IMG/VR virus record: IMGVR_UViG_2778261463_000006
Span: 1-61,071 of that record
Source of the DNA: a virus
Lineage: Duplodnaviria; Heunggongvirae; Uroviricota; Caudoviricetes
Direction: 5' to 3' (one strand)
DNA: 61,071 nt
Within the stretch, counting starts at the first letter, position 1. The number at the start of each line of letters is the position of its first letter. The notes beneath the pieces were generated by a model. That model ran no database searches. It worked only from the letters and a program-made list of their open reading frames with translations, and was not told where the DNA came from. Below, in pieces: positions 601-16,535 of the stretch. Made by a program: the position numbers and the translations under genes.

Positions 601-650
601 ACATAGCAGGAATCCACACCCCGAAGGGCGTGGAGGATGTCACGCTGCCT
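1..650 (+). mobile_element. Right portion of an IS200/IS605-family insertion sequence (right end approximate)
   Basis: tnpB followed by imperfect subterminal hairpin at 613-634 (tccacaccc-cgaa-gggcgtgga); abuts the 3' end of the ddrA-like gene. Confidence 0.5.
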
Positions 651-1005
651 CTTTAATGTTGGCGGCTATCCATGCCGCCGTGTGCTGTTTAACCTGGTCC
701 AGGTCGATGTATGTGCCAACATATTGACTCAAATCCTGCAAGGTACCGATAAATGCATCGGTGCTCTGATCGACGAATTTATCAGCCAGGAAATCAGCAA
801 CCAGTTTTGGCACACCATCATGTACCGAAGGTTGTTTTTCCTCGCCACTACTGCCGCCGGACACACCGTACCCCATCTGTTGCATGATCTGGTCAATTTC
901 ATCGCTGATATCCAGCAACTCCATGCCACTCGCGGTAGCCGCTTTGGACATCAGAGCATCCAACTTATCGCTGAGATCCATTAACTCAATAGCTGATAGT
1001 GTCAT
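640..1005 (-). CDS. ddrA: DdrA-like protein of the P1 darA antirestriction operon (121 aa, acidic)
   Basis: ORF immediately downstream of darA, stop/start overlap with it; name from P1 synteny recalled from memory. Confidence 0.5.
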   Translation of the reverse strand: MTLSAIELMDLSDKLDALMSKAATASGMELLDISDEIDQIMQQMGYGVSGGSSGEEKQPSVHDGVPKLVADFLADKFVDQSTDAFIGTLQDLSQYVGTYIDLDQVKQHTAAWIAANIKEAA

Positions 1006-2921
1006 GCCGCTACCCCCGCTTTCTGGATTGCTACCAACAGATCAGCCAGGTGGCGAGCTGCGCCGTTAACCAGCTCTTCGTTTTCCTCAAAACGTCCGGC
1101 AGCCTGAAGGGCTGCAATCGCTTCCCGGACATTGCCCCGGGCGTTACGGATCTCCGCCATGTCAGTGCTTTGTATATCCATCACGTTATTGAGATATTCA
1201 ATGGCTTTATTAGCCTCTGCATCTGCTTCGCTAACCGTTTCATCAGGCTGTGCCGTGGCCGGTTCTGACTGAGTAATCTCACCGACTTCGGCCTGCAATG
1301 CATTGATCATGCTCTGCACCATTTTCTCGGTGCCAGCGCCCCCAGGAAACGCAATATTGGGGAAAGTTTTTTGAAACTGAGTTTTCAGCATTACGCGGAA
1401 CTCGTCTGGTGAGCTGGTGGCCAGCTCCAGAGCTTTTTGTGCATATTTGCCAAACGGACCATTAGTAAGTGTCTTCGCCAGGAAGTCGAAAGAATCCTCG
1501 CGAGGCAATAACTTCAGGTCGTACTCACTCATTTGCTGATCAGAAAGCGGGGTATCGTAAGTAGCAATGCCGTAGCGTGCATATTCATAATACGGGTCAC
1601 CTTCATCAGGGCGCGGCAGAATTGCTTTGTTACCTTCAGGTATTGCGCCAGGGGCCGCCGGACGCATTTGCAGGGCATATCGATATGCACCTACAGAGAC
1701 TTCTGGTTCAGGCGAAGAGCTACCGGTATCCTCCGCTGGTTCAGGTTCGACGTTTTCCGGTTTATGTTCTTCTGGTTGGACCAGGTATTCCGATACATTA
1801 CCCGCTTTATAGGCTTTAAACAGCTTGCCGATCGCATCTGCCATGTCCACACCCTGTATGGATTTAGCCTTGATCATGTATACGCTGCCATCCGGATCGG
1901 TTAACTGGATATACCCTTCGCCGCCCCCAATGAATTGCTTCATTGATGCACCATTACTGAGCGTCACTTCCCCGTCCATATGCATACGATTTTTGATACT
2001 GGCAAGGCGATCCGTCAGCGCGCGAGAGTGCCCACCAGTCATCCCCGCTGGAGCAATGGTATCGCGCCCACCAGTGCGATTGAGCTGTTCAATCTCCGTC
2101 TGCAAACGCTCATTCTCTTCATAAAGAGAATCCGCTTCCGATGCAACAGCGTTAATTTTCTGCTCCAGATCTGCCTTCTGCCCTTCTACCGCTGCCACCT
2201 GATCCGCGAGGTCGCTCATGGCATCCTCTTTCTGGTCACTGTCAGCCTGTAGTTGGGTTATTTCATCAACAAGGGCTTTTTTCTTCTTCTGCGCACGCTG
2301 GAATTTTGCCGAGTTTTTCTCTGCAAGGTTGGCAAGTTTCATGGTGACCTGCGCCAGCGTCATATCACGTCCACTCATCGGAGCAACGGTGTGAGTAACG
2401 TCTTTTTTATTCAGTAAGAACTGGAAAGCAACCAGCGTATCGCTATTGGTGATCCGGTTTTCCGCTGTCGGGCTATGAAACAGAATGCTGATAGTCTGAC
2501 CATCACTGAGCGGAATAATGGCTGGCAAGACCGGCAGCCCGTTAACGTTACGTGCCCGGCCAATTTCAGCGCCGCCGATCGCGCGCGCGCCGCTCTGGGC
2601 CACATCCCCCGTTTTATCACTCCCCGCAGAGATTCCGGTACCATTCAGCTTCTGGTTCAATGCCCGGACAAATGCCTGCATGGTCCGGTGTAACTGCAAA
2701 CGAGTAGAACTAATCGCCTCCAGTAAATCCGTAGCACACCAGTGGATCGGCGTGTCATAGAAGAACGTAGCCTCGATTTCCTCCAGGGTGTTGGATTCCG
2801 TCATCAGATAGCGGTCCTCACCGGCCATTAATGCGCGATATTCATCATCAGTCACTGGCGGGGGAAGCACGTCAAGCCCAGGCTTGATCGTCACCCCTTT
2901 ATTGATATTGAACTGTTCCAT
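1002..2921 (-). CDS. darA: DarA-like defence-against-restriction / capsid internal protein (639 aa)
   Basis: 639-aa ORF with coiled-coil-rich centre; shares motif NSAKFQ with upstream Hdf; position after lydA/lydB/hdf as in P1. Confidence 0.7.
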   Translation of the reverse strand: MEQFNINKGVTIKPGLDVLPPPVTDDEYRALMAGEDRYLMTESNTLEEIEATFFYDTPIHWCATDLLEAISSTRLQLHRTMQAFVRALNQKLNGTGISAGSDKTGDVAQSGARAIGGAEIGRARNVNGLPVLPAIIPLSDGQTISILFHSPTAENRITNSDTLVAFQFLLNKKDVTHTVAPMSGRDMTLAQVTMKLANLAEKNSAKFQRAQKKKKALVDEITQLQADSDQKEDAMSDLADQVAAVEGQKADLEQKINAVASEADSLYEENERLQTEIEQLNRTGGRDTIAPAGMTGGHSRALTDRLASIKNRMHMDGEVTLSNGASMKQFIGGGEGYIQLTDPDGSVYMIKAKSIQGVDMADAIGKLFKAYKAGNVSEYLVQPEEHKPENVEPEPAEDTGSSSPEPEVSVGAYRYALQMRPAAPGAIPEGNKAILPRPDEGDPYYEYARYGIATYDTPLSDQQMSEYDLKLLPREDSFDFLAKTLTNGPFGKYAQKALELATSSPDEFRVMLKTQFQKTFPNIAFPGGAGTEKMVQSMINALQAEVGEITQSEPATAQPDETVSEADAEANKAIEYLNNVMDIQSTDMAEIRNARGNVREAIAALQAAGRFEENEELVNGAARHLADLLVAIQKAGVAA

Positions 2922-2922
2922 G

Positions 2923-3534
2923 TTAATTTCCTGCTTTCAGTTGCTTAAGACGACGTTTGAGTTCGCCATTCCGTGCCTTTTCGTTATTGAGTCGGCCCGT
3001 CTCCTTATCCAGCTTCGCCCGCAAATCAGTGATCTGCTGTTGATTGAAAGACACCGAATTCTGCGCGGACTTATAAGCGGCAACCACCTGAGCATTCCGC
3101 TGTTTTGCTTCTTGCAGGCGCTGAAAGTTGGATTTAACTGCCGGTTTCTTGTCTACCGGATTGGCAACACGCTTCGCTTTGGCGATCAGTGATTTCTGGA
3201 ATTTTGCGGAGTTTTTACGGGCCGCCTGTCCCATGACGGTACCAAGCGTCTTGATATCCGGCGATTGAGCGTTAGGAATAGCTTTTCCATTCAGCCTCAC
3301 AGACGATATATCGCCAGTATCGTTTACCTGTATGGCAAGAATTTGTCCGTCGTTAAGAACCAGCTTTGCGGTTTTAACTTTAACGCCATCTTTCGTTGTT
3401 GCGCGGTTGCTTGAGTCAACCTCAATTACCGTAACACTGGTTTTATTGATCGCCGCGATAAGGGATTTCAGCCCCTTTTCATTAACCTGGTCAAAATCGA
3501 CCGTTGCATACTTATTTTTCGTCATCTGACACAT
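2923..3534 (-). CDS. hdf: Hdf (homolog of DarA fragment)
   Basis: 203 aa; segment AARKNSAKFQKS matches DarA segment AEKNSAKFQRAQ; lies directly upstream of darA. Confidence 0.65.
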   Translation of the reverse strand: MCQMTKNKYATVDFDQVNEKGLKSLIAAINKTSVTVIEVDSSNRATTKDGVKVKTAKLVLNDGQILAIQVNDTGDISSVRLNGKAIPNAQSPDIKTLGTVMGQAARKNSAKFQKSLIAKAKRVANPVDKKPAVKSNFQRLQEAKQRNAQVVAAYKSAQNSVSFNQQQITDLRAKLDKETGRLNNEKARNGELKRRLKQLKAGN

Positions 3535-3955
3535 CCTGTGCGAGATTTATTACGTAACTTCTGCGGATTTGCTGAGTAACAGGGAAAATCCGATACAACG
3601 GGTTAATGAACGAGTCGCCATGCGTAACCATGACGTTGAAATGCCACAGCCGTTCTCCTTTACCCATATATTCAGTGGGTATGTACAACCATTCACTGTT
3701 TTCGCCCTGTTCAGCCGACGTCAGACAACGTTGTTCGCCTTCAATCACTGTCGTCGGCTTCTGAACATCGCGGATCCAATATCTGACCGTTGCGCCGCGC
3801 AAAAACGGGAATTTAGACCGGTATTTGAACGGCACCCGGATGAAACCCGGTTTAATTTCCACATCACCAAGTTCTAAATGCGTGATGTCCTTGCGTTTTA
3901 GCAAATAGCGATCGGCTAAGGCTAACGCAAGAACGCATACACCCCAGCCAATCAT
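3512..3955 (-). CDS. lydB: LydB-like antiholin candidate (147 aa)
   Basis: ORF between holin-like gene and hdf; N-terminal hydrophobic segment; assignment by P1 synteny only. Confidence 0.45.
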   Translation of the reverse strand: MIGWGVCVLALALADRYLLKRKDITHLELGDVEIKPGFIRVPFKYRSKFPFLRGATVRYWIRDVQKPTTVIEGEQRCLTSAEQGENSEWLYIPTEYMGKGERLWHFNVMVTHGDSFINPLYRIFPVTQQIRRSYVINLAQDVSDDEK

Positions 3956-4281
3956 TTCCCGCCTCCCTTTTTCACCAAACTTGTAAGAACATTCAGAATG
4001 CTATCGATATTCACTCGTTTCATCCCTGAAATCACCTCATGACCGTTATTGCTGGCTATCGTTACCATTAAGTACGTAATTGATAACTCCCAGCCCTTGT
4101 GTTGCCCCAATAGGTACGCCACCGCGCCAGCTGTCACTGCAACAAAGATCTCCGTAACCAATCCCAACAAATTGCCAGACTGGCGACCGTCTCGGACATC
4201 CATCAGGAACGTGCCTATCCCACCAATTACTGAAAGCAGGAGCGCAATAGCAACTGGAGCTAATTCCTGTGTGTCAAGCAC
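3952..4281 (-). CDS. lydA: LydA-like holin (109 aa, about three transmembrane segments)
   Basis: Small protein with three hydrophobic helices and charged C-terminus; start overlaps next gene; P1 lydA position. Confidence 0.55.
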   Translation of the reverse strand: MLDTQELAPVAIALLLSVIGGIGTFLMDVRDGRQSGNLLGLVTEIFVAVTAGAVAYLLGQHKGWELSITYLMVTIASNNGHEVISGMKRVNIDSILNVLTSLVKKGGGK

Positions 4282-4355
4282 AAGTTCCCTCCTACGTTGT
4301 CAGGAGGTAATGGTATGCAAAGTAACTTCTCAACCGGTTATGTTGCATAAGAGAC

Positions 4356-4619
4356 TTACCTATTCAACCGACTTTTGGAACCTTCAATAATAAGCCTGCT
4401 ATTGGCGCTGAAAATAAGAACCATGCAGCTCTGAAGGCTTTCATTCATGTCCTTATATTCCGCGAGATACATGCCAATAAAGCCAGCAAGTACGGCGGAA
4501 ATACATTCGGCCAGCAATTTCTTGCATGAAGACTCGTAACGGTTTTCACATAGCCCACTCAAATACGAATACACCCCACCAAGAAGGGATAACATCACGA
4601 TATGTACATAAAATGTCAT
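4356..4619 (-). CDS. Small membrane protein (87 aa, two hydrophobic segments), possible holin-like
   Basis: ORF with two hydrophobic stretches; first gene of the leftward lyd/dar block. Confidence 0.45.
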   Translation of the reverse strand: MTFYVHIVMLSLLGGVYSYLSGLCENRYESSCKKLLAECISAVLAGFIGMYLAEYKDMNESLQSCMVLIFSANSRLIIEGSKSRLNR

Positions 4620-4746
4620 TTTTTACCTATACAACAGTAAGTTGAACAACATTTGAGAACGGTATGCACTTTGTGATTTCCACACACACTGGTTTTGTTA
4701 ATTAAAACCTGTAGCTTGCAATAAATAACGATAGTGGGCAGAAAAT

Positions 4747-4933
4747 ATGCTAATAGGCTATGTACGCATATAGACAAATGAACAAAACACAGCTATGCAG
4801 TGAAAAGCACTTGAAAGCGCAGGATGTGAGCTAATTTTTGCGAATAAGGCGAGCAGCAAAAAGGCTGGGCACCCTGGGTTAAAAAAGGTTCTGCGTATGC
4901 TTTCCAGAGGTGATACCCTAGTCTCGGACTAGG
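4747..4933 (+). pseudogene. Remnant of the N-terminus of a serine DNA invertase (frameshifted/stopped)
   Basis: ATG at 4747 encodes MLIGYVRI then stop; downstream frame reads AGCELIFANKASSKKAGHPGLKKVLRMLSRGDTLV, collinear with Cin residues 1-65; ends in a perfect palindrome 4916-4934. Confidence 0.6.
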
Positions 4934-5054
4934 GACAACATTTCGAGAACAGTTTTCATTAGCGGTCAGCAGGCGCTAGATACATCGAATTGATGTGCCG
5001 CGCGATAAATGTACCTATTCTATCAAGATAAATTACACCGACGCGGCATTAGAA

Positions 5055-5627
5055 TTACAGCTCAGATTGAGTTTGGCGCTTCTCTACAGGATGATAACGA
5101 TAAATCGTCGATACACCGATATCGTAAATAATTGCCAACTGTTTCCTGCTGTAGCCATTTTCGATCAACCTCGCTATTTGCTCATGTTGTTCTTTTGTCA
5201 ACTTCGGGCGACGTCCGCCAATGCGTCCTTGTGCGCGTGCTGCTGCCAGCCCGGCCAGTGTACGCTCTACAATTAATTCACGTTCCATTTCGGCTAAAGC
5301 TCCCATGACGTGAAAAAAGAAACGCCCCATGGGTGTTGATGTGTCAATGCTGTCCGTCAGACTACGGAAATTAACACCTTTTTCCCGCAATTCCTCAATA
5401 AGCGTGATCAGGTGTTTCATACTTCTGCCCAGTCTGTCCAGCTTCCAGACAACCAGCGTATCTCCTTCTGATAGCGTTCTGAGCAGTTTTTTCAATCCCG
5501 GTCTGGCTGATTTCGTTCCGCTGATTTTATCTTCAAAAATCAGTTCACATCCTGCGCACTCCAGCGCGTTACGCTGCAATTCTGTATTCTGGTCATTTGT
5601 TGATACGCGGACATAGCCAATAAGCAT
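5055..5627 (-). CDS. cin: Serine-recombinase DNA invertase (Cin/Gin/Hin/Pin family)
   Basis: 190 aa; catalytic N-terminus MLIGYVRVSTNDQ...VVWKLDRLGRS and C-terminal HTH; adjacent to invertible tail-fibre segment. Confidence 0.9.
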   Translation of the reverse strand: MLIGYVRVSTNDQNTELQRNALECAGCELIFEDKISGTKSARPGLKKLLRTLSEGDTLVVWKLDRLGRSMKHLITLIEELREKGVNFRSLTDSIDTSTPMGRFFFHVMGALAEMERELIVERTLAGLAAARAQGRIGGRRPKLTKEQHEQIARLIENGYSRKQLAIIYDIGVSTIYRYHPVEKRQTQSEL

Positions 5628-5682
5628 GATGGATCCCCTGAATAAAAACCGGGGATGATGCCAGTTAGCCGTAATCTCTGCA

Positions 5683-5708
5683 TTTTCTTAAACGTTGGTT
5701 TGGGAGAA
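5683..5708. other. cix-like 26-bp recombination site (left)
   Basis: TTTTCTTAAACG-TT-GGTTTGGGAGAA; inner half-site is the reverse complement of the inner half-site at 7568-7593; resembles hix/gix architecture. Confidence 0.6.
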
Positions 5709-6206
5709 GGCTCTGCATTACCGGTTGGTGTGCCTGTTCCGTGGCCTTCAGCCACTCCGCCAACAGGCTGGCTGAAATGCAACGGAGCAGCTTTTTCTGC
5801 TGAAGAATACCCGGAGCTGGCAAAGGCTTACCCGACAAATAAATTGCCTGATTTACGTGGTGAGTTTATTCGTGGCTGGGATGACGGACGTGGTATGGAT
5901 ACGGGGAGGGCAATATTATCCGCTCAGGGCGATGCCATACGTAATATCTATGGTGAGTTCAAGACTGTAAACACCGAAAATTATTCAATATGGGAATCAG
6001 TAGGCTCGTTTAAGGGGGCAGTAGTGCCTTTGAACCCCTCAACGAACAATAGTTATTTCTCCTTAATCAGAAGTATGGTGACAGAAAGAACAGATGGCGC
6101 TGTTTACCCAAAAGTGATTGGCCTTGATGCTTCAAGAATTGTTCCAACTGCAAACGAAAACCGTCCTCGTAACATTGCCTTTAATTATATCGTGAGGGCT
6201 GCCTGA
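5697..6206 (+). CDS. Alternative tail-fibre C-terminal segment Sv' (no own start; would fuse in frame to S constant part after inversion)
   Basis: Reading frame continues GLGE... across the crossover exactly as the S frame does at 7579; ORF-track start at 5655 is read-through of the cix site. Confidence 0.55.
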   Translation, partial: GLGEGSALPVGVPVPWPSATPPTGWLKCNGAAFSAEEYPELAKAYPTNKLPDLRGEFIRGWDDGRGMDTGRAILSAQGDAIRNIYGEFKTVNTENYSIWESVGSFKGAVVPLNPSTNNSYFSLIRSMVTERTDGAVYPKVIGLDASRIVPTANENRPRNIAFNYIVRAA

Positions 6207-6808
6207 TGAATAAAGCCGTATTAAATAACGAACTCATTGCCATAAAAGCGGGAGTCATTACCATTTATAATTATGATGGTGAAACGCGGGAATATATTTC
6301 CACATCAACTGAATATCTTGCGGTTGGCGTCGGTATCCCGGCATGTTCTTGTTTAGATGCACCAGTTACACATAAAGCTGGTTATGCAATCTGCCGTTCT
6401 GCAGATTTTAACTCATGGGAATATGTGCCAGACCATCGCGGTGAAATCATCTATAGCACCGAAACAGGAGAATCGAAAGAAATCACAGCTCCGGGTGATT
6501 ATCCTGAAAATACAACCACTATCGCCCCGTTAACGCCATACGATAAATGGGATGGTGAGAAATGGGTGACGGATACCGAGGCACAGCATAGCGCCGCAGT
6601 AGAAGCGGCAGAAGCACAGCGCCAGTCGCTGATTGATGCTGCAATGGCTTCCATCAGTCTGATTCAGCTGAAATTACAGGCCGGGCGGAAGCTGACGCAG
6701 CCAGAAAACACCCGACTTAACGCTGTGCTGGATTATATTGACGCGGTGACGGCAACAGATACCAGCACAGCGCCGGACGTCATCTGGCCTGAACTGCCGG
6801 AGGCGTAG
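6206..6808 (+). CDS. Tail fibre assembly protein U' (for Sv')
   Basis: 200 aa; C-terminus with Tfa hallmark ...DYIDAVTATDTSTAPDVIWPELPEA; start overlaps Sv' stop (TGATG). Confidence 0.75.
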   Translation: MNKAVLNNELIAIKAGVITIYNYDGETREYISTSTEYLAVGVGIPACSCLDAPVTHKAGYAICRSADFNSWEYVPDHRGEIIYSTETGESKEITAPGDYPENTTTIAPLTPYDKWDGEKWVTDTEAQHSAAVEAAEAQRQSLIDAAMASISLIQLKLQAGRKLTQPENTRLNAVLDYIDAVTATDTSTAPDVIWPELPEA

Positions 6809-7220
6809 GCCATTCAATATCTGGCGCACCGGAAGTATCGACCAGTTCCAGTGCGTCCAGATAATCCAGCCACAAATTATATTGCGCCAGTTCCTCACCT
6901 TTCAGGCGACCAATCGCCGCTTTACCAGGCCATTGCTTACTGTTTATGTATTCGTTGACCTGATTAATCAATTGCTGCTTTTCCAGTTCGGCTGCGGCAA
7001 TTTGTTCCTCATGAGTTGGCGGTGGAATATCAATCCATGCAGGCATTCCGTCGATGACACCTCTGTATTTTCCTTCTGGTGCTTCCTTCATAAATTCGGC
7101 GGCAACAGTGTCGTCAATTTCGATTCCATCACCGGGCCATTCGCCGGATTCCTGATAAGCGATTTTAAGCTCCACAGGGAAAAACGCATTTTTCTCGGCA
7201 CTGAAAATATATTTCTGCAT
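6780..7220 (-). CDS. Tail fibre assembly protein U
   Basis: 146 aa; Tfa-family C-terminus ...DYLDALELVDTSGAPDIEWPTPP; immediately downstream of S. Confidence 0.8.
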   Translation of the reverse strand: MQKYIFSAEKNAFFPVELKIAYQESGEWPGDGIEIDDTVAAEFMKEAPEGKYRGVIDGMPAWIDIPPPTHEEQIAAAELEKQQLINQVNEYINSKQWPGKAAIGRLKGEELAQYNLWLDYLDALELVDTSGAPDIEWPTPPAVQAR

Positions 7221-7222
7221 TT

Positions 7223-9019
7223 CTACCGTCCTATCGAAATATAACTGAATCTGTATTGCTGTGAGATATCACTGGTTGCCACACGCCACGCTGAATTACT
7301 GATATGTTCAAAATTTACAGACAAAACCTGCGGGGCAGGATTCGACGGGTCTGACTGAACGGCATCAGACATAACACTGACTGAAACCATCGGCTGATTA
7401 GGGAATGGTATAGGGAAGTGTCCACTGATAAAGCGGGTCGTGTTTCCTGAAAAAGTGCCAAACTGAACAATATATCCACCTGGTAGCCTGAACCATCCCG
7501 AACCAGAAGCGAATGCTCCCATATCCGGTATCTGATTATCTCCTGTGCCCACATCCCTTTTCGCCGCTTCTCCCAAACCAAGGTAATCAAGAACTCCCTG
7601 AGTGCTGGTTTTACCAAGAATGGCACGTCCAACACTTGTCAACGCGGTTAACGCGGCACGATCTGCCCCTGTAAAATATGGGAGTTTATCTGCTGATGTA
7701 GCAAGCTCCGCCAGCGCCGTCAGGGTGGCATCCTTCGGTTGCTTACCCGCAAGCGCGTTAGTCATGGTGGTCGCAAAATTCGGGTCATTGCCCAGCGCCG
7801 CAGCCAGTTCGTTCAGCGTGTTCAGTGCATCAGGTGACGAATCTACAAGTGCGGCAATCGCGGCCATAACGAAAGCCGTGCTTGCGATCTGGGTACTATT
7901 AGTCCCCTGTGGCGCTGTTGGTGTTGTTGGCGTTCCGGTCAGTGCCGGGCTGTTTAATGGTGCTTTCTTGTTCGTTTCATCCATTACCGCCTTAACAGCT
8001 TTTGGTGTCGCTGCCAGCGTTTCAGACGTGCTGTTCGTGGCGCTACTGAGCTGAGTGATGCCTTTCGCTGTCAATGAAGCTGTTGGCACACCAGTGATCT
8101 GATTCCAGGGATGTGTATGACTGGATGGTGCCTTTCCGGCTGCTAGATCGTATGCAGCTTTAACCGCTTTTGGAGTTGCAGCTAATGTTTCAGAAGTGCT
8201 GTTGGTGTCGCTACTGAGCTGAACTATCCCTTTTTGTGTCGTGGTTGCATCCTGGGCTGTATACTTCCCGTTAGCCAGGTCATATGCAGCCTTGACAGCT
8301 TTCGGTGTGGCGGCCAGCACTTCGGACGTGCTGTTAGTGGCACTACTGAGCTGAACTAATCCCTTTTGCGTTGTGCTTGCATCCTGCGCCGTATACTTGC
8401 TTTTCGCCAGATCGTAGGCTTTTTTAACTGCCAGCGAACTCGCAGCAACATCACTTCTGGTACTGGTTACAGAGTCTGAAATATCAATGCCGATCGTGCG
8501 GTTGATACGCTCGGATGTATCAATCATCTCTTGAGTAATGGTAGATACGCCAGCAGGGATATTCACCGTACAAACCAGCAGTTCCCCATCACCTAACTGA
8601 TATGAATCGGTATAGGTTCTGGCAACAAATTCAGCTGCATGAATATGTGACGCGGTATTCACCTGATAGGTATCTTCTCCAAGAAGGTATCTTCCCTTCA
8701 GCACAATTGCATATTTCTTGCCTGCGTTAAGTGCAAGAGAGATATCCTTACGATGCTGAATAGTTACCTGGTAGAATTCACCAATATCCACTGACGCCGC
8801 GCCAGCGGTTTTATCTCCATCCACTGAGGTGATTAACAGGTTCATCCCACCGCCAGGCTTAGGCAAGAAACCAGCATAAAATCCCGGGTCAACAATTCCC
8901 CTGAATTTTCGGTTTAGAGCGGCTGACAGATATGGTTCGTGGTATTGCACATCAGCCACCATAGCCAACGACTCGGGTGATGGGTAAGTAACCGATGTAA
9001 CAACTGTAACGTCATTCAT
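7223..9019 (-). CDS. Tail fibre protein S (constant part 7580-9019, variable C-terminal part Sv 7223-7579)
   Basis: Likely start MNDVTVV at 9019 (ORF track extends to 9106); internal fibre repeats KAVKAAYDLA...TQKG.VQLSS.TNSTSE.LAATP; cix site inside coding frame. Confidence 0.8.
   Translation of the reverse strand: MNDVTVVTSVTYPSPESLAMVADVQYHEPYLSAALNRKFRGIVDPGFYAGFLPKPGGGMNLLITSVDGDKTAGAASVDIGEFYQVTIQHRKDISLALNAGKKYAIVLKGRYLLGEDTYQVNTASHIHAAEFVARTYTDSYQLGDGELLVCTVNIPAGVSTITQEMIDTSERINRTIGIDISDSVTSTRSDVAASSLAVKKAYDLAKSKYTAQDASTTQKGLVQLSSATNSTSEVLAATPKAVKAAYDLANGKYTAQDATTTQKGIVQLSSDTNSTSETLAATPKAVKAAYDLAAGKAPSSHTHPWNQITGVPTASLTAKGITQLSSATNSTSETLAATPKAVKAVMDETNKKAPLNSPALTGTPTTPTAPQGTNSTQIASTAFVMAAIAALVDSSPDALNTLNELAAALGNDPNFATTMTNALAGKQPKDATLTALAELATSADKLPYFTGADRAALTALTSVGRAILGKTSTQGVLDYLGLGEAAKRDVGTGDNQIPDMGAFASGSGWFRLPGGYIVQFGTFSGNTTRFISGHFPIPFPNQPMVSVSVMSDAVQSDPSNPAPQVLSVNFEHISNSAWRVATSDISQQYRFSYISIGR
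7568..7593. other. cix-like 26-bp recombination site (right), inside S
   Basis: TTCTCCCAAACC-AA-GGTAATCAAGAA; matches hix/gix-type architecture; inner 12-bp half-site identical (reverse complement) to left site. Confidence 0.6.
8030..8420 (-). repeat. Three tandem ~120-bp repeats encoding tail-fibre repeat units (boundaries approximate)
   Basis: Near-identical DNA blocks ...gctactgagctga... at about 8040, 8205 and 8335; protein repeats of ~37 aa. Confidence 0.55.
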
Positions 9020-9030
9020 CAAGCATATCC

Positions 9031-9465
9031 TTATGCTGTAGTCGAGTTTATGGCCATAACTGCGGTATATGTTTTGCCCACATACAGCGAGTCTTCTTGG
9101 ACACAAATAATGGCGATTGGCTTATTCTCGTTATCCAGAACAACCAGAGTGTTGAATGGGTAGTTTTTCCCTTCCTGCAACTGACTTTGATCAAGGTCCA
9201 TTCGGACAGTAATTATCCCGCCTGAGTAGGTTGGGACGAGGTTGATGGTGCAAAATTGACTGGTCAGTTCTGCCAGATCGAAAGCCTTTGGCAGTTCTCC
9301 AATCTCATAAGTGCCATCTCCTTTCTTAGTAACCAGTGAACTGGTACCGAAAACGGCCTTGCTGATTAAAAATCGAGAGCCTTTGTTAATGGACGATTCA
9401 GCGCGCCGCTGATAGTAATAGTCCAACAACTGACTCTTATAGAGGTTTGTTGAGACGTCAGACAT
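9031..9465 (-). CDS. R-like tail-fibre-associated structural protein (144 aa)
   Basis: ORF directly upstream of S with tight spacing; assignment by P1 synteny. Confidence 0.45.
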   Translation of the reverse strand: MSDVSTNLYKSQLLDYYYQRRAESSINKGSRFLISKAVFGTSSLVTKKGDGTYEIGELPKAFDLAELTSQFCTINLVPTYSGGIITVRMDLDQSQLQEGKNYPFNTLVVLDNENKPIAIICVQEDSLYVGKTYTAVMAINSTTA

Positions 9466-9543
9466 GATTTTCCCTAATCAATGTTGTGAAGCCTCATTGT
9501 AAGATAAGTAACTTGTCACCCCGCCCTGCGGACGAGGTGATTG

Positions 9544-10383
9544 TCACGCATCGCTATCCAACAGCAAATCATCTGCGCGGGTGCGATCAAACGTAGGCGT
9601 TGCTTTCACAATAGTGCCGCCCGGCGTTGCAGTGATCGGGGCGTTAATCGACGTAACTTCAGTAAGCGAAGTTGTATCCGAAGTTTCAAACCAGCAGAAT
9701 GCTTTTTCGGTATCAGAAATCTCATTCAAAGTGATCATGTCGGCCTGTTCATTTACAACAACCGACAAATAGAGCGTAAGCCCATCAAACACTATATGCA
9801 GTGGCAGTAGAGGCTTTACGAACTGATTAAACTTTCTGAGAATTTCTTCTGTAATTGCGGACTGATCTATCGTTCCAGTAATACCCATTGTCCGGGCCAG
9901 GTCGTTTATGGGAATACTGATCATTCCTCTGGAAGTCAGAAACATCTCGCCGAATGTGCCGCCGGTGGTTTCCAGTGTGCTTTCTGGAATCAGGACCGTG
10001 CCATAGGGATGTCGTTCAAAGTCCACCGGAGCATATATGGGATCCCATAAAACCGATATACCGTTAAATTCGCGATAAATTGTCTGGTTTATAGGGCGTT
10101 CAGTACCCTTAAAATGGATCTCATCAAACCGCTGTTGTAACAACATCGGAACGGAAGATGAATTCGACGTTCTGATAGTAAAAAACTGGCCAAGTTCATT
10201 TGTCCTAGTCTCCAGATCCTCCTTGCTCATGGAGAAAATAGACTTCCGGTTGGTAATTCGCTCCAACCATGGGTCAACAAAGGTGTCCATCATTGACTGA
10301 ACCAAATCAGCCAATGATTTATAAAGCAATGACTTTTGCTTAGCTGATGTAAGCCGGTTATTAAACCAGGAACGTTGCATCAC
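9544..10383 (-). CDS. Baseplate/tail protein (P1 gp16-like, 279 aa)
   Basis: ORF in baseplate block, start overlaps upstream gene end; synteny only. Confidence 0.45.
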   Translation of the reverse strand: MMQRSWFNNRLTSAKQKSLLYKSLADLVQSMMDTFVDPWLERITNRKSIFSMSKEDLETRTNELGQFFTIRTSNSSSVPMLLQQRFDEIHFKGTERPINQTIYREFNGISVLWDPIYAPVDFERHPYGTVLIPESTLETTGGTFGEMFLTSRGMISIPINDLARTMGITGTIDQSAITEEILRKFNQFVKPLLPLHIVFDGLTLYLSVVVNEQADMITLNEISDTEKAFCWFETSDTTSLTEVTSINAPITATPGGTIVKATPTFDRTRADDLLLDSDA

Positions 10384-11813
10384 TCCTCCTCATACGAAAT
10401 ATTGAAGGTGGAGTTTTCTGTATCCAGATAAACGAAATCGTAAAAGCCGTTGGACTCATTCCACTCGACAAACTCCAGATAAAAGTCGCGGAAATAGCCC
10501 AGCGTTTCGATAAACGCCCAAACGTCTTTTTTCTTAATCAGGATGTACTTTCCGACGCGGTTCGGATCAAAGAAAGTTGAGTCGCGCCCAAATTTTTTTT
10601 CCAGTGCCGACTTCAGCTCATCGGTCACATTCTCAATGGTCAGGCTTGCCGATATCCGTCCGGTGATGGTTATCTTAAATGGTAGTTTTCTGACCTCTTT
10701 ATAAGAGAATTTCTTGTTCAGTTCATTCGGTACCTTCTTAAAGGCAGCCAGGATCATTTCTTCAAGCTCTGACTGACTTTTATTCGGATGCCATCCTGAA
10801 ATAAATATCTTATTGATATTCTGAACATTATAAGCACCATCTAATTTTTCTTGCTGACCCTCGCCCCATGCCTTTACCCAGGACAGTCCCGGGATGTTAC
10901 GCACCAGAAAATACGTATAGTCCCCGCCCCATACGACCTGATCATCATAGGCGAGGTAATATTGTGCACGGTTACGTGTGATCTCCGTTGTTTCGGCATC
11001 GGTACCTGTGGTTATAGGTGTCGTTGTCTTAACTGAAATCAAATTAGCTAAATTAGCCGCAGAATCGACAGGCGTCAGGTTTTGGCCAGCAACCAGGGTT
11101 ATATCGCCGTTGGTGCACCATACCTTAAGCGTAATTGTCGAGCCTTCTGGCGGTATTTGCCCAATTAGCCCATCGCCGAATCGAACCCCCAACTGCTCGG
11201 ATGGTTTATAAAACTCAACGTAGACCTGGCTTTTACTACCGGCTAACCGGAACATAGTGCTGGAAGACCACTGCGTGGTCTTACCATCGGTCGTCACGAA
11301 TACTTCCAGCTTATAGCAGACAGCAGTGAGAGCCTTTGATAACACGACTTCCAGAAATTCTTTGGCTGCCGTAACGGTATATGTCACCTCCTGGATTTCC
11401 AACTGTGCCACTTCTACCGTACCGGTGCCGTCAACCAACCTGCATACATCCATAGTCATGTAAGGGTACTGGTCGTCAGATATTAAAGGCGTGTTTTTGG
11501 GGATTACCGCTGGAGCATCTTCACTTGTGGCTGTGATCTCAACCATCCCGGATGACGGTGTTGGCTTGGTACCAACGTAACTATTCGTTTCTGCCGCTGC
11601 CAGGATAGAGGAACGCCGCGTCGCGGTCGATATAAAGCCTTCAGCCAGCGCCGCATCGGCATACTGAAAGCACCTGTAGACAATCTGGGTAATAAACAAT
11701 GTCAGCATCGAGACAAATTGAGAGCCGACAAACTTCGACCAGAATGAATCTTTCTCGACAAGCTCTTCAAACTCTGCACGAATACTGTCTTTAGTCGGTG
11801 TTGTTTTACTCAT
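10380..11813 (-). CDS. Baseplate protein (BplA-like, 477 aa)
   Basis: Large ORF between gp25-like wedge gene and gp16-like gene; synteny with P1 bplA. Confidence 0.5.
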   Translation of the reverse strand: MSKTTPTKDSIRAEFEELVEKDSFWSKFVGSQFVSMLTLFITQIVYRCFQYADAALAEGFISTATRRSSILAAAETNSYVGTKPTPSSGMVEITATSEDAPAVIPKNTPLISDDQYPYMTMDVCRLVDGTGTVEVAQLEIQEVTYTVTAAKEFLEVVLSKALTAVCYKLEVFVTTDGKTTQWSSSTMFRLAGSKSQVYVEFYKPSEQLGVRFGDGLIGQIPPEGSTITLKVWCTNGDITLVAGQNLTPVDSAANLANLISVKTTTPITTGTDAETTEITRNRAQYYLAYDDQVVWGGDYTYFLVRNIPGLSWVKAWGEGQQEKLDGAYNVQNINKIFISGWHPNKSQSELEEMILAAFKKVPNELNKKFSYKEVRKLPFKITITGRISASLTIENVTDELKSALEKKFGRDSTFFDPNRVGKYILIKKKDVWAFIETLGYFRDFYLEFVEWNESNGFYDFVYLDTENSTFNISYEEE

Positions 11814-12169
11814 AGCACCACGTCCTGTGTGATAGTTATGTCCCTGATACGAATGGATATTTTCAACTTATCAAAAGCATCTCCCTCGGCTACTGACAAG
11901 CCAGAAATCGGTATGTCAGGTAAATCTACCGTCAGTTTTTGCAACAGCATTGCCTCAACCGCAATTTGAACATGCGACAAGTTGGTCGGTTCGTGTTTAA
12001 ACTGCGGTAAAACATTGCCCCAAGACGGATCTCCGTATACCTCACCCTGATAAGTGTTTAGCCACTCATATAAACGAGCGCCCCAGGCCTCCTCCTGGGA
12101 CTCATACGTTTTTACGCCGGATAACTCCAGCGTCAGTAAAGGATCAATTTCATTATTGTTGGCCATCAA
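11810..12169 (-). CDS. gp25-like baseplate wedge protein (PmgA-like, 119 aa)
   Basis: Size and sequence character of GPW/gp25 family; sits immediately downstream of sit. Confidence 0.5.
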   Translation of the reverse strand: MMANNNEIDPLLTLELSGVKTYESQEEAWGARLYEWLNTYQGEVYGDPSWGNVLPQFKHEPTNLSHVQIAVEAMLLQKLTVDLPDIPISGLSVAEGDAFDKLKISIRIRDITITQDVVL

Positions 12170-15100
12170 TCAACTCTCGCGTAGTCATTCATCAACGGAT
12201 CATCAATTGACAGTGGTACCGTGCGCATAACGCCCGGCTGAGGCGTGCTGACCTTTACGACAGTTCCCTGGCCTTTCGCCGAGTCTTTGGTGTGCTCTTC
12301 AATCCTGGCAAGCAATGAGGTCATCTGCGCAAACAGCCGCTTCGTTTCACCATCAAGTGAAACGGTATTATCAGCCAACTGCATTGTCGGCTTGGCACCG
12401 GAACCGCCAAGGTCACTAATAACCTGCCCGTCTATCTGCATACGACCGGTTGGTTGCTGCAAATCGTTGGCGGCAGTCGTCACCTGGGACGTGGAGGCTG
12501 GTTCAGGCGCATTATTTTTCCGCATCCCCGGCGAGTTGCGGAGTTTATCGAATAGTCCATCAATCCCCATTTGTGCGCCGAGATGGTCAAAGTAACTTGA
12601 GTTGTTGGCCACCGGACGCGCCTCTTCAACTGGCATCGGGGTATCAACATACACATTGCCAGCTGCTGTTGCGGTCCCCTTCCCTCGTGCACGTTCTTCG
12701 AGCGTTCCCTGAACGACTTCCCGACGCATCCCCCGGCCATTCATGAATTTGTTGACCAGATCGTTAACGCCAACAGCATTGCCAATTTTGTCTACCAGAC
12801 CGCCTTTCTCAAACGGGCTATCACCAGGGGTAAACGCCAGGCCAGTAGACTGATCGATAACAGCGTTATCAGGCAGTGGTCCCCTCACTCCATATTGCGC
12901 CCCACCCTGTGCTCCTGCTCCAGGTGTATAGATTTCACCACCTAAATAGCGAGCACGATGAGTATTGACCTTGATCGCGTACTCACGGTTTTCTTTCGAT
13001 AAGTCACCTGTGCCTTTTTTCCACTTATTGATAGTGCCAAACCCAGCATTATATGCAGTGATGGCCTCGTTTAAGTCTCCATTGGCTTGCTTCAGATATT
13101 TGCTCATGAGAAGAGCCGCAGCTTCTGCCGATTTCACAGGATCAAACGATTCACCTTCAGCTAAGCCAGTCTCTTCACGAGCAATCCCCGTGAACTGAAA
13201 CATCCCCAGAGCACCGGTTTGGGATTTTGCATACGGATTACCACCAGATTCAGTTGCAGCAATCGCGTAAAGAGTGCCTTCTGGAAGACCGTATTTATTC
13301 TCTAGTTCGGCAAAATACGGAGCCAACTTATCGAGATTTGCCTTGCCTTCAGCGCCAAGACTTCCGACTTTTACATCCAAGTTGCCATTGTTGTAGGTAT
13401 CCGCAGCTTTCTGAATGTCATTCCTGGTGCCAGTGGTATTAAACGACGATGATGACGAGCTATTTTGACCAATAGCTTTATCAATTTTCTGCAACGCGCT
13501 ATTGCCCGTTTCTACGGCATTTGCATTGATAATCTGATTGGCAGTTTGTTTTACTGTTTTATTGCTATCTTTCGCCGTGTCAAGTGCCGCATTTATCACG
13601 CGGGTAGCAATATTACTCTGTTTGGCATCGGATTCAGTTTTAGAATTAGACGTCTCCTGGTGGCTATTAACCGGAGCTTTTAACTCTGGAGTGATTTCTT
13701 TCGCATTAGCCTCGCCGATTGGATTGGGTATTTTTGATACAATCATTGCCGCAGGGGTATTTTTAACGGCATCAACCGCTGCATCTAATGCTTTACCTGG
13801 TAAATTTTTAACCCCATCCCAAATATTACCAGCCGCCTCTTTAATGTGTTTCCCAGGGTTCTTAATGAAATCAATTGCACTATCAATTGCATCACTGAAA
13901 ACCTGTTTCAGGTTATCGACAGTAAAGAAGTCTTTGATGGCATCCAGCTTTTCAAGCAGCTTATTAGATGTATCGCTAAACCATGCTGAAACAGCATCAC
14001 CAATCTTTGCTGTGTAATCATCGAACTTGGTAGAAATGGTGTCGCCAAGGTTAGCAATATATGTTTCTAAGTTGGTAATCCCACTATCAATGGCCTGGGC
14101 AATACTTTCCGTCGAAAATGATTGCAACATATTGCCGATATCCTCAAATCCAAGTGATTTGAGAACCTCACCAATGGCGCTGCTAATACCAGATACCAGT
14201 CCCCCCATATCAAGAACATTAGCTAACGTATAAGCGGCTTTTTGCTGGAATGATGGATCTTGTCCTGATTTAAGCCCAAACGCTCGACGTTGCGCTTCTG
14301 TATCATTCCAACCGGTTACCGCATCATAAATACCTCCAGCCACTGTGCCGACTAGGGGAATTGCGCGTAACGCCCCTTTACCAACTGCCTTTAATCCAAG
14401 TTTACCTGCTGCCCGGGCAGCCAAATCTCCGCCTTCATGGGCGAGAGTCTTCTTGCCACCACCGCGTAGCATTCCTACAAGTTTCTTTGCCCCCAGAGCG
14501 CCAAAAGCGAGTGCTCCAGCTTTTTTCAGCATGCCACGCCCCATTAACAACGACGCGACGCCACCGGCCCCCTTCCCTAACAGGCTAAATAGTTTGGACA
14601 GCAAGCCGCCCTTCTTTTTCCCGGTGTTTTTGGCTATCTGATCAAGGGCGCTGAGAATCTTGTCATTGCCCTCTTTAATTTCGCTGGTCTGCTCCTGAAG
14701 TTCCTGAACCGTCCGTTTTTGGGTGTTAACCTGAACGACATCGGCACTATTTTGCGATTTACGCCTAAAAAAACCTTTTCTACGGCTGTTATCGTCATTG
14801 CCACGAATCACATCGGCAATAGACTTTCTGGCACCATTAAGCGATCCACCAACTTCTTTTGATATCCCGCCAAGCTCCTTCCCTGCTGCCCACAATGGAC
14901 CAGCAACGGCATAACCTAACGCATCGACGGCACGAGTTTCTGAAGGGTTACCTATGCCTTCAGCTACTTTTGACAGTTTTTTTAATAAACCTGATTCAGC
15001 ATTTAGACGCTCATCATCCTCTTTGCGCCTGGCCTTTTCAGCACGTTCAGCACGGGCATCTTCCGCTGCGGCCTTACTCCCTGACTTTCCAATAAAACGA

Positions 15101-15558
15101 CCACGCGCATCGCGTTGGTTTTGGCTTTTTTGCGCACCGCCTTTTTGACCGAACATTTCGCGAGCGTGTTCAGCTGCTTCGGTTCGTTGCGCCTTTACAT
15201 CTTCTGTTATAGCCTTCTTGCGTCGTTTTTTACCCTTTCGCGTAGTTGATTTGGCCTGCGGTTCCTGTAGAGCAACATCCTCCTGAACTACACGAGAAAC
15301 GTCCCCTAAATTAAGCCGTTTCATTGCCTCAACAATAGGGTCCACTGATGGCGCATTGGCCACAAAGTCTGGCCGGGAATTTTCGATTGTGCGATTTAAT
15401 GCCGACACACTGCGAGAGACAGGATCAACAGTTGCAACGCGCCCCCCTTTCAAATCTTCAACAGCTTCCCGGATACCAGCAAGCTCTTCCAGCTCTTTTG
15501 CGCTGGCGGTTTCAACTGTCCTTATAACATCGTCAATGTTGGCGTTTTTTCTTTCCAT
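12166..15558 (-). CDS. sit: Sit-like structural injection transglycosylase / tape-measure-like protein (1130 aa)
   Basis: Soluble lytic transglycosylase motif ...AIAATESGGNPYAKSQTGALGMFQF...; Gly/Lys-rich and coiled-coil regions; size matches P1 Sit. Confidence 0.8.
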   Translation of the reverse strand: MERKNANIDDVIRTVETASAKELEELAGIREAVEDLKGGRVATVDPVSRSVSALNRTIENSRPDFVANAPSVDPIVEAMKRLNLGDVSRVVQEDVALQEPQAKSTTRKGKKRRKKAITEDVKAQRTEAAEHAREMFGQKGGAQKSQNQRDARGRFIGKSGSKAAAEDARAERAEKARRKEDDERLNAESGLLKKLSKVAEGIGNPSETRAVDALGYAVAGPLWAAGKELGGISKEVGGSLNGARKSIADVIRGNDDNSRRKGFFRRKSQNSADVVQVNTQKRTVQELQEQTSEIKEGNDKILSALDQIAKNTGKKKGGLLSKLFSLLGKGAGGVASLLMGRGMLKKAGALAFGALGAKKLVGMLRGGGKKTLAHEGGDLAARAAGKLGLKAVGKGALRAIPLVGTVAGGIYDAVTGWNDTEAQRRAFGLKSGQDPSFQQKAAYTLANVLDMGGLVSGISSAIGEVLKSLGFEDIGNMLQSFSTESIAQAIDSGITNLETYIANLGDTISTKFDDYTAKIGDAVSAWFSDTSNKLLEKLDAIKDFFTVDNLKQVFSDAIDSAIDFIKNPGKHIKEAAGNIWDGVKNLPGKALDAAVDAVKNTPAAMIVSKIPNPIGEANAKEITPELKAPVNSHQETSNSKTESDAKQSNIATRVINAALDTAKDSNKTVKQTANQIINANAVETGNSALQKIDKAIGQNSSSSSSFNTTGTRNDIQKAADTYNNGNLDVKVGSLGAEGKANLDKLAPYFAELENKYGLPEGTLYAIAATESGGNPYAKSQTGALGMFQFTGIAREETGLAEGESFDPVKSAEAAALLMSKYLKQANGDLNEAITAYNAGFGTINKWKKGTGDLSKENREYAIKVNTHRARYLGGEIYTPGAGAQGGAQYGVRGPLPDNAVIDQSTGLAFTPGDSPFEKGGLVDKIGNAVGVNDLVNKFMNGRGMRREVVQGTLEERARGKGTATAAGNVYVDTPMPVEEARPVANNSSYFDHLGAQMGIDGLFDKLRNSPGMRKNNAPEPASTSQVTTAANDLQQPTGRMQIDGQVISDLGGSGAKPTMQLADNTVSLDGETKRLFAQMTSLLARIEEHTKDSAKGQGTVVKVSTPQPGVMRTVPLSIDDPLMNDYARVD

Positions 15559-16521: not shown

Positions 16522-16535
16522 CCTTGCTCCTTAAT

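What the first reader, a model, noticed from the sequence alone, without database searches (positions are those of the whole stretch)
5683..7593. Intact invertible tail-fibre host-range switch with 26-bp cix-like sites
Sites at 5683-5708 and 7568-7593 share an inverted 12-bp inner half (GGTTTGGGAGAA / TTCTCCCAAACC) around a 2-bp core and fall in codons encoding GLGE in both S (minus) and Sv' (plus). Inversion would swap the C-terminal ~120 aa of the fibre and the cognate assembly protein (U for U'). In the orientation present, S-Sv-U is expressed; Sv'-U' is silent.
Basis: partly seen in the sequence, partly recalled or inferred. Interest (0 to 1): 0.45.

Follow-up and report, generated by a model that had tools for sequence, protein, structure and literature searches.

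The report
Invertible tail-fibre switch in P1-like plasmid
This is a working DNA flip-switch of a long-known type that lets a P1-like phage-plasmid of E. coli alternate between two receptor-binding tail-fibre tips; public assemblies already hold the same element in both orientations, so it is real but ordinary.

Summary
Two 26-bp crossover sites (5683-5708, 7568-7593) bound a 1.88-kb segment. They share a perfect inverted 14 bp: a TT/AA core plus GGTTTGGGAGAA, which reads GLGE in frame in both fibre genes. The segment carries two convergent tip-plus-chaperone cassettes: Sv'-U' on the plus strand and Sv-U on the minus strand. An intact 190-aa serine invertase lies beside it at 5055-5627 on the minus strand.

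A position weight matrix built from P1, Mu, e14 and Hin sites ranks these two sites first in the 61-kb window (24.5 bits each; the next best scores 9.7). The fibre predicted after flipping (S', 649 aa) exists exactly in public data. One assembly (L019) matches the window's flanks at 100% over 11.9 kb with the segment inverted. Another assembly (GCA_900449835.1) holds both orientations on two contigs.

- The recombinase is not Cin. P1's own cin survives only as a truncated pseudogene (4747-4923, plus strand).
- The active enzyme is closest to e14 PinE among those compared. Its position and orientation next to the cin relic match p15B's.
- The invertase-proximal site matches e14's at 25 of 26 positions.
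- The swapped tips are 114 and 165 aa.

This is a member of a textbook family, so interest is low.

The parts
4747..4923 (+). Pseudo-cin. This is the relic of the first 177 nt of P1's own invertase gene, with stop codons at codons 9 (replacing the catalytic Ser) and 19. It is truncated where homology to P1 ends.
   Evidence: Translation reads MLIGYVRI*TNEQNTAMQ*K…. It is 86% identical to the intact cin of a P1-like plasmid. The P1 alignment ends at 4923. The repeat finder pair I1 shows it as an inverted copy of the N-terminus of the active invertase.
5035..5049 (-). Terminator-like hairpin just downstream of the invertase stop codon.
   Evidence: Consensus scan only; function is inferred.
5055..5627 (-). 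Intact 190-aa serine DNA invertase of the Pin/Min type, transcribed away from the invertible segment.
   Evidence: Pfam Resolvase 5.8e-52 and HTH_7 3.5e-15. Amino-acid identity is 81.5% to e14 PinE, 76.3% to P1 Cin and 72.1% to Mu Gin. It matches the Gin structures 4M6F and 3UJ3 over residues 1-185. The exact protein is seen on 265 public contigs.
5538..5609 (-). Presumed Fis-dependent recombinational enhancer (sis), at nt 19-90 of the invertase gene and about 75-170 bp from the left site.
   Evidence: It aligns without gaps to the enhancer annotated in P1 cin at nt 19-90, with 57 of 72 positions identical. The two G-N13-C 15-mers, at nt 22-36 and 71-85, are identical and 14 of 15 identical to those of Mu gin. 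Function is inferred, and the coding constraint confounds the conservation.
5683..5708 (+). Left, invertase-proximal 26-bp crossover site: outer half TTTTCTTAAACG, core TT (5695-5696), inner half GGTTTGGGAGAA.
   Evidence: It matches the pin-proximal site of e14 at 25 of 26 positions. Inversion breakpoints in relatives fall at 5692-5709.
5697..6206 (+). Sv': the silent alternative fibre tip (GLGE + 165 aa, tail-collar domain). It has no constant N-terminal part in this orientation.
   Evidence: Pfam Collar 6.6e-16; frame confirmed; it joins Sc in frame after an in-silico flip.
6206..6808 (+). U': the tail-fibre assembly chaperone (200 aa, TfaE-like) cognate to Sv', silent in this orientation.
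   Evidence: Pfam Caudo_TAP 4.9e-32. Relatives are annotated tfaE.
6780..7220 (-). U: the tail-fibre assembly chaperone (146 aa) cognate to Sv, expressed in this orientation. Its 3' end overlaps that of U' by 29 nt.
   Evidence: Pfam Caudo_TAP 3.1e-34; ORF coordinates.
7223..7579 (-). Sv: the currently expressed fibre tip (GLGE + 114 aa + stop), with a Gp53-like C-terminal domain.
   Evidence: Pfam Gp53-like_C 1e-07; translation.
7568..7593 (+). Right 26-bp crossover site inside the fibre gene: inner half TTCTCCCAAACC, core AA (7580-7581), outer half GGTAATCAAGAA.
   Evidence: Breakpoints in relatives fall at 7567-7584.
7580..9019 (-). Sc: the constant N-terminal part of tail fibre S (start ATG at 9019). 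It contains the shaft repeats. From 8273 upward it is 96% identical to P1; 7568-8272 is only 68-75% identical.
   Evidence: Pfam Phage_fiber_2 repeats 1.5e-71.
9031..9465 (-). R: first gene of the R-S-U late operon.
   Evidence: Aligned to P1 R. Pfam Phage_P1_tail_fiber_R in the precomputed table.
9496..9514 (-). Late promoter LPs (the -22 and -10 boxes), which drives R-S-U.
   Evidence: The window 9477-9533 is identical to the P1 stretch that contains the annotated LPs.

Best explanation
The window is a contig of a P1-like (Punavirus) phage-plasmid of E. coli. Its tail-fibre gene S is split by a site-specific inversion switch of the Hin/Gin/Cin/Pin/Min (Din) family.

**Proposed mechanism** (by analogy with Gin and Hin; not tested here). 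Dimers of the 190-aa serine invertase bind the two 26-bp sites. A Fis-bound enhancer inside the 5' end of the invertase gene brings them together on the supercoiled plasmid. Both sites are cut at the 2-bp core (TT/AA), one pair of subunits rotates 180 degrees, and the ends are rejoined. This inverts bases 5697-7579.

**Consequence for expression.** The crossover lies in the same codon phase (GLGE) in both tips. The constant part Sc, expressed from the late promoter LPs through R, is therefore fused to one of two tips:
- Sv (114 aa, Gp53-like C-terminus) followed by chaperone U. This is the present state and gives a 598-aa S.
- Sv' (165 aa, tail-collar domain) followed by chaperone U'. This is the flipped state and gives a 649-aa S'.

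A lysogen population would therefore release virions with two different receptor specificities.

**Origin.** This module replaced P1's own cin and 4.2-kb C segment, leaving a cin pseudogene. The invertase has the same placement and orientation as min of plasmid p15B. The cassette and the invertase-proximal site are e14 P-segment-like.

**Shown:** the anatomy, the reading frames, the site family, and the existence of both orientations in nature. **Inferred:** Fis dependence, the cleavage chemistry, and the host-range effect.
For: **Backbone.**
- Bases 9000-24000 are 97-98% identical to P1 and its relatives.
- P1 homology runs 644-4923 and 8273 onward at about 96%, with a 3.35-kb replacement between.

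**Invertase.**
- It is intact, with resolvase and HTH_7 domains.
- It is 81.5% identical to PinE, 76% to Cin and 72% to Gin, and matches solved Gin structures over its full length.

**Sites.**
- They are the top two position-weight-matrix hits in 61 kb.
- The cores are identical in inverted orientation.
- The left site matches e14's pin-proximal site at 25 of 26 positions.

**Enhancer.** It is colinear with the enhancer annotated in P1 cin and with Mu gin.

**Frames.** Confirmed.

**Both orientations in nature.**
- The exact predicted S' protein is public.
- L019 has flanks identical to the window with 0 mismatches over 11.9 kb, and the segment inverted.
- Contigs 2 and 4 of one assembly, GCA_900449835.1, carry opposite orientations with 0 flank mismatches.
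- pF1055-2 and the CP098993.1 plasmid differ by the same inversion.
- Two 120,248-bp K. pneumoniae plasmids are 100% identical in the flanks, with 1,903 bp inverted.

**p15B-like architecture.**
- Notes in the P1 record place p15B homology to cin nt 1-173 and to the enhancer at spacings that match this window.
- PMC6906374 describes a P1-like plasmid (pJIE250-3) whose invertase gene is 98.5% identical to Min and lies in reverse orientation to P1 cin.

**Promoter.** The late promoter LPs is conserved.
Against: - No promoter for the invertase was identified; the consensus scan found none on the minus strand between 5628 and 5720.
- Conservation of the enhancer cannot be separated from the coding constraint.
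- The outer half-sites are poor palindromic partners of the inner ones (7-8 of 12), although P1's own cix sites are similar in this respect.
- Inversion could also be catalysed in trans by a host prophage invertase such as e14 Pin. The natural isomers therefore do not prove that this particular gene is the active one.
- The receptors of the two tips are unknown, so the host-range change is inferred from P1 and Mu.
Confidence: 0.92

Rival explanations
1. The switch is a fossil. The sites and genes look intact, but this plasmid no longer inverts, and the present orientation is fixed.
For: Only one orientation is present in the window itself. No invertase promoter was found. At least one relative, the Salmonella Agona plasmid L007, has lost the alternative cassette and the inner half-site.
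Against: An assembly with flanks 100% identical to the window carries the flipped segment. One assembly holds both isomers. The exact flipped fusion protein is in public data.
Confidence: 0.03
2. The natural isomers arise by RecA-dependent homologous recombination between the short inverted repeats, not by the serine invertase.
For: The two sites share an inverted repeat, and the breakpoints can only be placed within it.
Against: The repeat is only 14 bp perfect (17 of 18). From my own knowledge, that is far below the length RecA needs for efficient exchange. The repeat is a canonical Din-family site beside an intact invertase. The same breakpoints recur in unrelated replicons that carry the same site and invertase types.
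Confidence: 0.02
3. It is a multi-site, shufflon-like Min system as in p15B, with more than two states.
For: The invertase has p15B-like placement next to a cin relic. Some P1-like plasmids carry a 5-kb min-like multiple-inversion region (PMC5786510).
Against: Only two sites score above background in the whole window (24.5 bits each; the next best is 9.7). Only two tip cassettes are present.
Confidence: 0.03

Closest known systems
Min inversion system of plasmid p15B (E. coli 15T-), a P1-related plasmid
   Same: The backbone is P1-like. The invertase gene lies in the opposite orientation to P1 cin, next to a truncated cin relic. The spacings match: notes in the P1 record place p15B homology to cin nt 1-173 and to the enhancer about 135 nt apart, against 131 nt here. 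P1-like plasmids with a Min-like invertase in reverse orientation are described in PMC6906374, and a plasmid with a 573-bp 'pin' gene in the same position, beside a min-like region, in PMC5786510.
   Different: From my own knowledge (Sandmeier et al. 1990, 1991; papers not held), p15B has six mix sites and a 3.5-kb cluster of overlapping invertible segments. Here there are only two sites and one 1.88-kb segment.
Pin / P segment of the cryptic prophage e14 (E. coli K-12)
   Same: The gene order is the same: invertase diverging from the silent tip, with two convergent tip-plus-Tfa cassettes. The invertase is 81.5% identical. The inner half-site GGTTTGGGAGAA is identical, and the invertase-proximal site matches at 25 of 26 positions. 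U' is TfaE-like.
   Different: e14 is a defective lambdoid prophage in the chromosome. Here the module is grafted onto the P1 fibre shaft (Sc) of a plasmid prophage, and the Sv tip differs.
Cin / C segment of phage P1
   Same: The genomic position is the same, between lydC and S-R-16. The logic is the same: Sc fused to Sv or Sv', with U or U'. The TT core and the site family are shared, at 19-20 of 26 positions.
   Different: P1's cin reads towards cixL and is intact; here it is a pseudogene and a different invertase faces the other way. The P1 C segment is about 4.26 kb (32225-36480 in the P1 record); from my own knowledge it has 0.6-kb inverted repeats, and the record's Sv is about 534 aa. 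Here the segment is 1.88 kb with only the 26-bp sites, and the tips are 114 and 165 aa.
Gin / G segment of phage Mu
   Same: The arrangement of invertase, sites and cassettes is the same. The invertase is 72% identical, and Gin is the closest solved structure. The enhancer 15-mers are shared.
   Different: The core dinucleotide differs (TC/GA in gix, TT/AA here). The fibre constant part and the tips are different.

Membership tests
Din-family (Hin/Gin/Cin/Pin/Min) DNA inversion systems | Small serine recombinase (about 190 aa) with an N-terminal catalytic domain (YVRVS, catalytic Ser) and a C-terminal HTH | tested here: met
   Pfam Resolvase 5.8e-52 and HTH_7 3.5e-15. The sequence MLIGYVRVST… aligns end to end with Gin, Cin and PinE at 72-82% identity.
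Din-family (Hin/Gin/Cin/Pin/Min) DNA inversion systems | Two 26-bp crossover sites (12-bp imperfect inverted half-sites around a 2-bp core), in inverted orientation, with identical cores | tested here: met
   Both cores are TT when each site is read from outer half to inner half. They are the top two position-weight-matrix scores in the window. They match known cix, gix and pix sites at 16-25 of 26 positions.
Din-family (Hin/Gin/Cin/Pin/Min) DNA inversion systems | Fis-dependent recombinational enhancer in cis, within the 5' part of the invertase gene | tested here: inconclusive
   The sequence is colinear with the annotated P1 enhancer (57 of 72). The two Fis-like 15-mers are shared with Mu gin. 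The stretch is also coding sequence, and Fis binding cannot be tested with these tools.
Din-family (Hin/Gin/Cin/Pin/Min) DNA inversion systems | The segment actually inverts, so both isomers are found | tested here: met
   A plasmid identical in its flanks carries the segment inverted (L019). Both isomers occur in assembly GCA_900449835.1. The exact S' fusion protein is public. The window itself shows one state only.
Phage tail-fibre host-range switches (Mu G, P1 C, e14 P type) | Inversion exchanges the in-frame C-terminal fibre tip together with a cognate Tfa chaperone, downstream of a constant N-terminal part and a fixed promoter | tested here: met
   Domains are, frames, the in-silico flip giving a 649-aa S' followed by U', and the conserved LPs promoter.
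Phage tail-fibre host-range switches (Mu G, P1 C, e14 P type) | The two orientations give different adsorption specificity | not testable with these tools
   This is inferred from P1 and Mu. PMC13172314 states that P1 S and S' bind different LPS structures. The tips here belong to different Pfam domains.
P1 Cin / C segment proper | Intact cin reading into cixL, and a 4.2-kb C segment with 0.6-kb inverted repeats | tested here: not met
   cin is truncated at nt 177 and carries two stop codons. P1 homology is lost between 4924 and 8272. The segment is 1.88 kb, and the only repeats at its ends are the two 26-bp crossover sites.
p15B Min multiple-inversion system | Six mix sites that give overlapping invertible segments | tested here: not met
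   Only two sites lie above background in 61 kb.
p15B Min multiple-inversion system | min invertase in reverse orientation, adjacent to a cin relic on a P1-like backbone | tested here: met
   The layout is shown. The p15B coordinates in the P1 record notes give the same breakpoint (P1 31832 against 31836 here) and the same spacing. Identity to the Min protein itself was not measured.

The most novel reading that the evidence does not exclude
The 26-bp sites may serve not only for inversion but also as docking joints, through which whole tip-plus-chaperone cassettes are captured from unrelated phages by invertase-catalysed intermolecular recombination rather than by homologous recombination.

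The evidence is compatible with this but does not prove it:
- Plasmid pRHB25-C13_2 (L006) has flanks 99.6% identical to the window up to 5710 and from 7565, but a different cassette between the sites.
- Salmonella phage MET_P1_103_31 shares exactly 5695-7584 at 99.6% and nothing outside it.
- The same cassette family sits in P1-like, P2-like and e14-like elements.
Probability: 0.2. Interest if true: 0.35.

Novelty: new member of a known kind. Interest (0 to 1): 0.15.

Why it matters
The finding matters little beyond correct annotation. It shows that this P1-like phage-plasmid carries a live two-state host-range switch, built from an invertase with p15B-like placement and an e14-like cassette in place of P1's own Cin/C segment.

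Three practical points follow:
- Host range, and so the transduction range of such plasmids (some P1-like phage-plasmids carry resistance genes; PMC9600943, abstract), cannot be read from a single assembly orientation.
- Automatic annotation calls the silent tip a separate 'phage tail protein'.
- Assemblers can emit duplicate contigs for the two isomers, as in GCA_900449835.1.

The mechanism itself has been textbook knowledge since the 1980s.

Tried and rejected
- **Loose consensus search.** AAACCNNGGTTT with up to 2 mismatches gave 34 hits against 31 expected, so it is uninformative. It was replaced by a position weight matrix of known sites.
- **Promoter scan.** The sigma-70 scan found no convincing promoter for the invertase and none for Sv'.
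- **NCBIfam.** It gave no specific equivalog for the invertase or for any fibre part.
- **Papers.** Attempts to read the original p15B Min papers failed because they are not held. The Min comparison therefore rests on the p15B cross-references in the P1 record, on two later papers and on my own recollection.
- **Census of junction types in PLSDB.** The result was 28 records with the native-type left junction against 2 full-length flipped, plus many at about 77% coverage. Tip sequence diversity confounds this count, so it is not an orientation frequency.
- **Hypotheses rejected.** A third site or shufflon; a chance inverted repeat; and the internal inverted repeats at 6721-6870 as extra sites. 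Those repeats lie across the 3' ends of the two convergent Tfa genes. They most likely reflect the similar C-terminal motifs of the two proteins (LDYIDA in U', LDYLDA in U); this is my reading, not a test.
Full report
**What the window is.** The window is contig NNVD01000031.1 of E. coli assembly GCA_002485525.1 (L015 is 100% identical). Bases 9000-24000 are 97-98% identical to phage P1 and P1-like phage-plasmids. Against P1 itself, 644-4923 and 8273 onward align at about 96%. Between them lies a 3.35-kb replacement of P1's cin and C segment, which occupies 5.26 kb in P1.

The gene order is:
- darA, hdf, lydB, lydA and lydC, all on the minus strand
- a cin relic, 4747-4923 (plus strand)
- an intact invertase, 5055-5627 (minus strand)
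- the invertible segment
- Sc, the constant part of fibre S, up to its ATG at 9019 (minus strand)
- R, 9031-9465; gene 16; bplA

**Check of the observation.**
- 5683-5708: TTTTCTTAAACG TT GGTTTGGGAGAA
- 7568-7593: TTCTCCCAAACC AA GGTAATCAAGAA

The inner 12-mer occurs exactly twice in the window, on opposite strands. With the core, the perfect inverted repeat is 14 bp, or 17 of 18. It reads GLGE in frame in both the plus-strand tip ORF and the minus-strand fibre gene.

To test whether this is more than chance, I built a position weight matrix from half-sites of P1 cix, Mu gix, e14 pix (read from fetched records) and hixL (from memory). The two sites are the two best 26-mers in the window at 24.5 bits each. 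The next best scores 9.7, and the background is -25 ± 8. There is therefore no third site.

**Anatomy.**
- Invertase: 190 aa, with resolvase and HTH_7 domains. It is 81.5% identical to e14 PinE, 76.3% to P1 Cin and 72.1% to Mu Gin. It aligns over residues 1-185 with the solved Gin structures 4M6F and 3UJ3.
- Enhancer: nt 19-90 of the invertase gene (window 5538-5609) are colinear with the enhancer annotated in P1 cin. They contain two G-N13-C 15-mers that are identical or 14 of 15 identical to those of Mu gin.
- Segment 5697-7579 holds four parts:

| Part | Coordinates | Strand | Content |
|---|---|---|---|
| Sv' | 5697-6206 | + | tail-collar domain |
| U' | 6206-6808 | + | Caudo_TAP chaperone, TfaE-like |
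| U | 6780-7220 | - | Caudo_TAP chaperone |
| Sv | 7223-7579 | - | Gp53-like C-terminal domain |

- Expression: R-S-U lie on one strand downstream of the P1 late promoter LPs, which is conserved base for base. In the present orientation S (598 aa) and U are expressed. Sv'-U' lack the constant part and have no promoter-like site.
- Flip: inverting in silico at the cores gives an open 649-aa S' followed directly by U'.

**Does it really flip?**
- The predicted S' protein exists residue for residue in public data as STM65099.1, WP_097054184.1 and XGG54397.1.
- Contig NMLX01000062.1 (L019) is 100.000% identical to the window over 7,453 bp on one side and 4,487 bp on the other. Its 1,890-bp segment is inverted at 99.95% identity. 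The strand switch falls within 5692-5709 and 7567-7581.
- Assembly GCA_900449835.1 contains both isomers: contig 2 carries S and contig 4 carries S'. The flanks have 0 mismatches and the segment is inverted.
- Further pairs show the same thing:
  - p1_025985 against the FDAARGOS_1250 plasmid.
  - pF1055-2 against the CP098993.1 plasmid, with a 100% left flank and the segment 99.8% identical but inverted.
  - Two 120,248-bp K. pneumoniae plasmids carrying a P2-like prophage with a related invertase and site, with 100% flanks and 1,903 bp inverted.
- Searching E. coli genomes with the native sequence and with the in-silico flipped sequence gave one-piece hits across the invertase-segment junction for both.

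**What it is and is not.**
- It works like the classical Din-family switches.
- It is not P1's Cin system. The real cin is cut off at nt 177 and carries stop codons at codon 9 (in place of the catalytic serine) and at codon 19.
- The active invertase faces the other way, diverging from Sv' as in Mu and e14.
- Cross-references in the P1 record place p15B homology to cin nt 1-173, and place p15B's enhancer at the same spacing as here. Published P1-like plasmids carry a Min-like invertase in reverse orientation (PMC6906374) or a 573-bp 'pin' gene in this position beside a min-like region (PMC5786510). The architecture is therefore p15B/Min-like, but with two sites rather than six.
- The cassette is e14-like. 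The inner half-site is identical to e14's, the invertase-proximal site matches at 25 of 26 positions, and U' is TfaE-like.

**Mechanism (inferred).** From the established biochemistry of Gin and Hin, which was not tested here, the steps would be: invertase dimers bind both sites; the Fis-bound enhancer assembles the synapse on supercoiled DNA; both sites are cleaved at the 2-bp core; subunits rotate; the ends are religated. The identical TT cores in inverted orientation allow inversion. A host Din invertase such as e14 Pin could also act in trans, so the natural isomers do not by themselves prove that this particular gene is the active one.

**Novelty and score.** The kind has been textbook knowledge since the 1980s. 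The same invertase protein is on 265 public contigs, and 658 PLSDB plasmids match the region. I found no paper that describes this exact two-site variant with this placement of the invertase. It adds nothing mechanistic, so I file it as a new member of a known kind, with interest 0.15.

The least ordinary reading still open is that the sites also mediate capture of whole cassettes between unrelated phages. Breakpoints at the sites in L006, and in Salmonella phage MET_P1_103_31, are compatible with this. Conserved inner half-sites would give the same picture under homologous exchange.

Noticed in passing
window 4747-4923 (+): There is a relic of P1's own cin gene, with stop codons at codon 9 (in place of the catalytic Ser) and codon 19. 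It is truncated at nt 177, exactly where P1 homology ends. It is about 86% identical to intact cin, while the neighbouring backbone is about 96% identical to P1. It still contains a copy of the enhancer region (62 of 72 identical to P1's). It forms a 101-nt, 76% inverted repeat with the 5' end of the active invertase gene (4747-4847 against 5527-5627).
   Followed up: partly
window 7964-8395; L008, L004, L005, L012: The fibre shaft (Sc) contains diverged 132-nt repeats. In relatives, window 7989-8369 (381 nt) aligns at three positions spaced 300 bp apart. Their fibre genes accordingly encode 824-1,073 aa, against 598 aa here. The copy number of shaft repeats, and so probably fibre length, varies between otherwise near-identical P1-like plasmids.
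   Followed up: partly
L007 (Salmonella Agona plasmid NZ_CP071390.1) 2284-3777: This relative has 99% identical flanks but only one fibre tip and one chaperone. On the left it keeps the outer half-site plus core (TTTTCATAAACG TT) and then diverges exactly after the core. On the right, the inner half-site is replaced. It looks like a locked, one-state derivative, produced either by deletion or by replacement at the crossover point.
   Followed up: partly
L006 (pRHB25-C13_2, CP057476.1) 2311-4190; also one search hit H1: The flanks are 99.6% identical to the window up to 5710 and from 7565, but most of the cassette between the two sites differs. Conversely, Salmonella phage MET_P1_103_31 shares only 5695-7584, at 99.6%. 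The cassette travels as a unit bounded by the sites.
   Followed up: partly
window 5647-5666 (-): A terminator-like hairpin followed by a T-run lies between the left crossover site and the invertase start codon, on the invertase strand. That is also the strand of the late R-S-U transcript. It might insulate the invertase from late read-through, but it comes from a consensus scan only.
   Followed up: no
L017 and L020 (GCA_900449835.1, contigs UGEI01000002.1 and UGEI01000004.1): One public assembly contains two contigs of the same plasmid region that differ only by the inversion, apart from indels in the shorter contig. This is an assembler side-effect of a mixed-orientation population, and it also duplicates gene calls in the databases.
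   Followed up: yes
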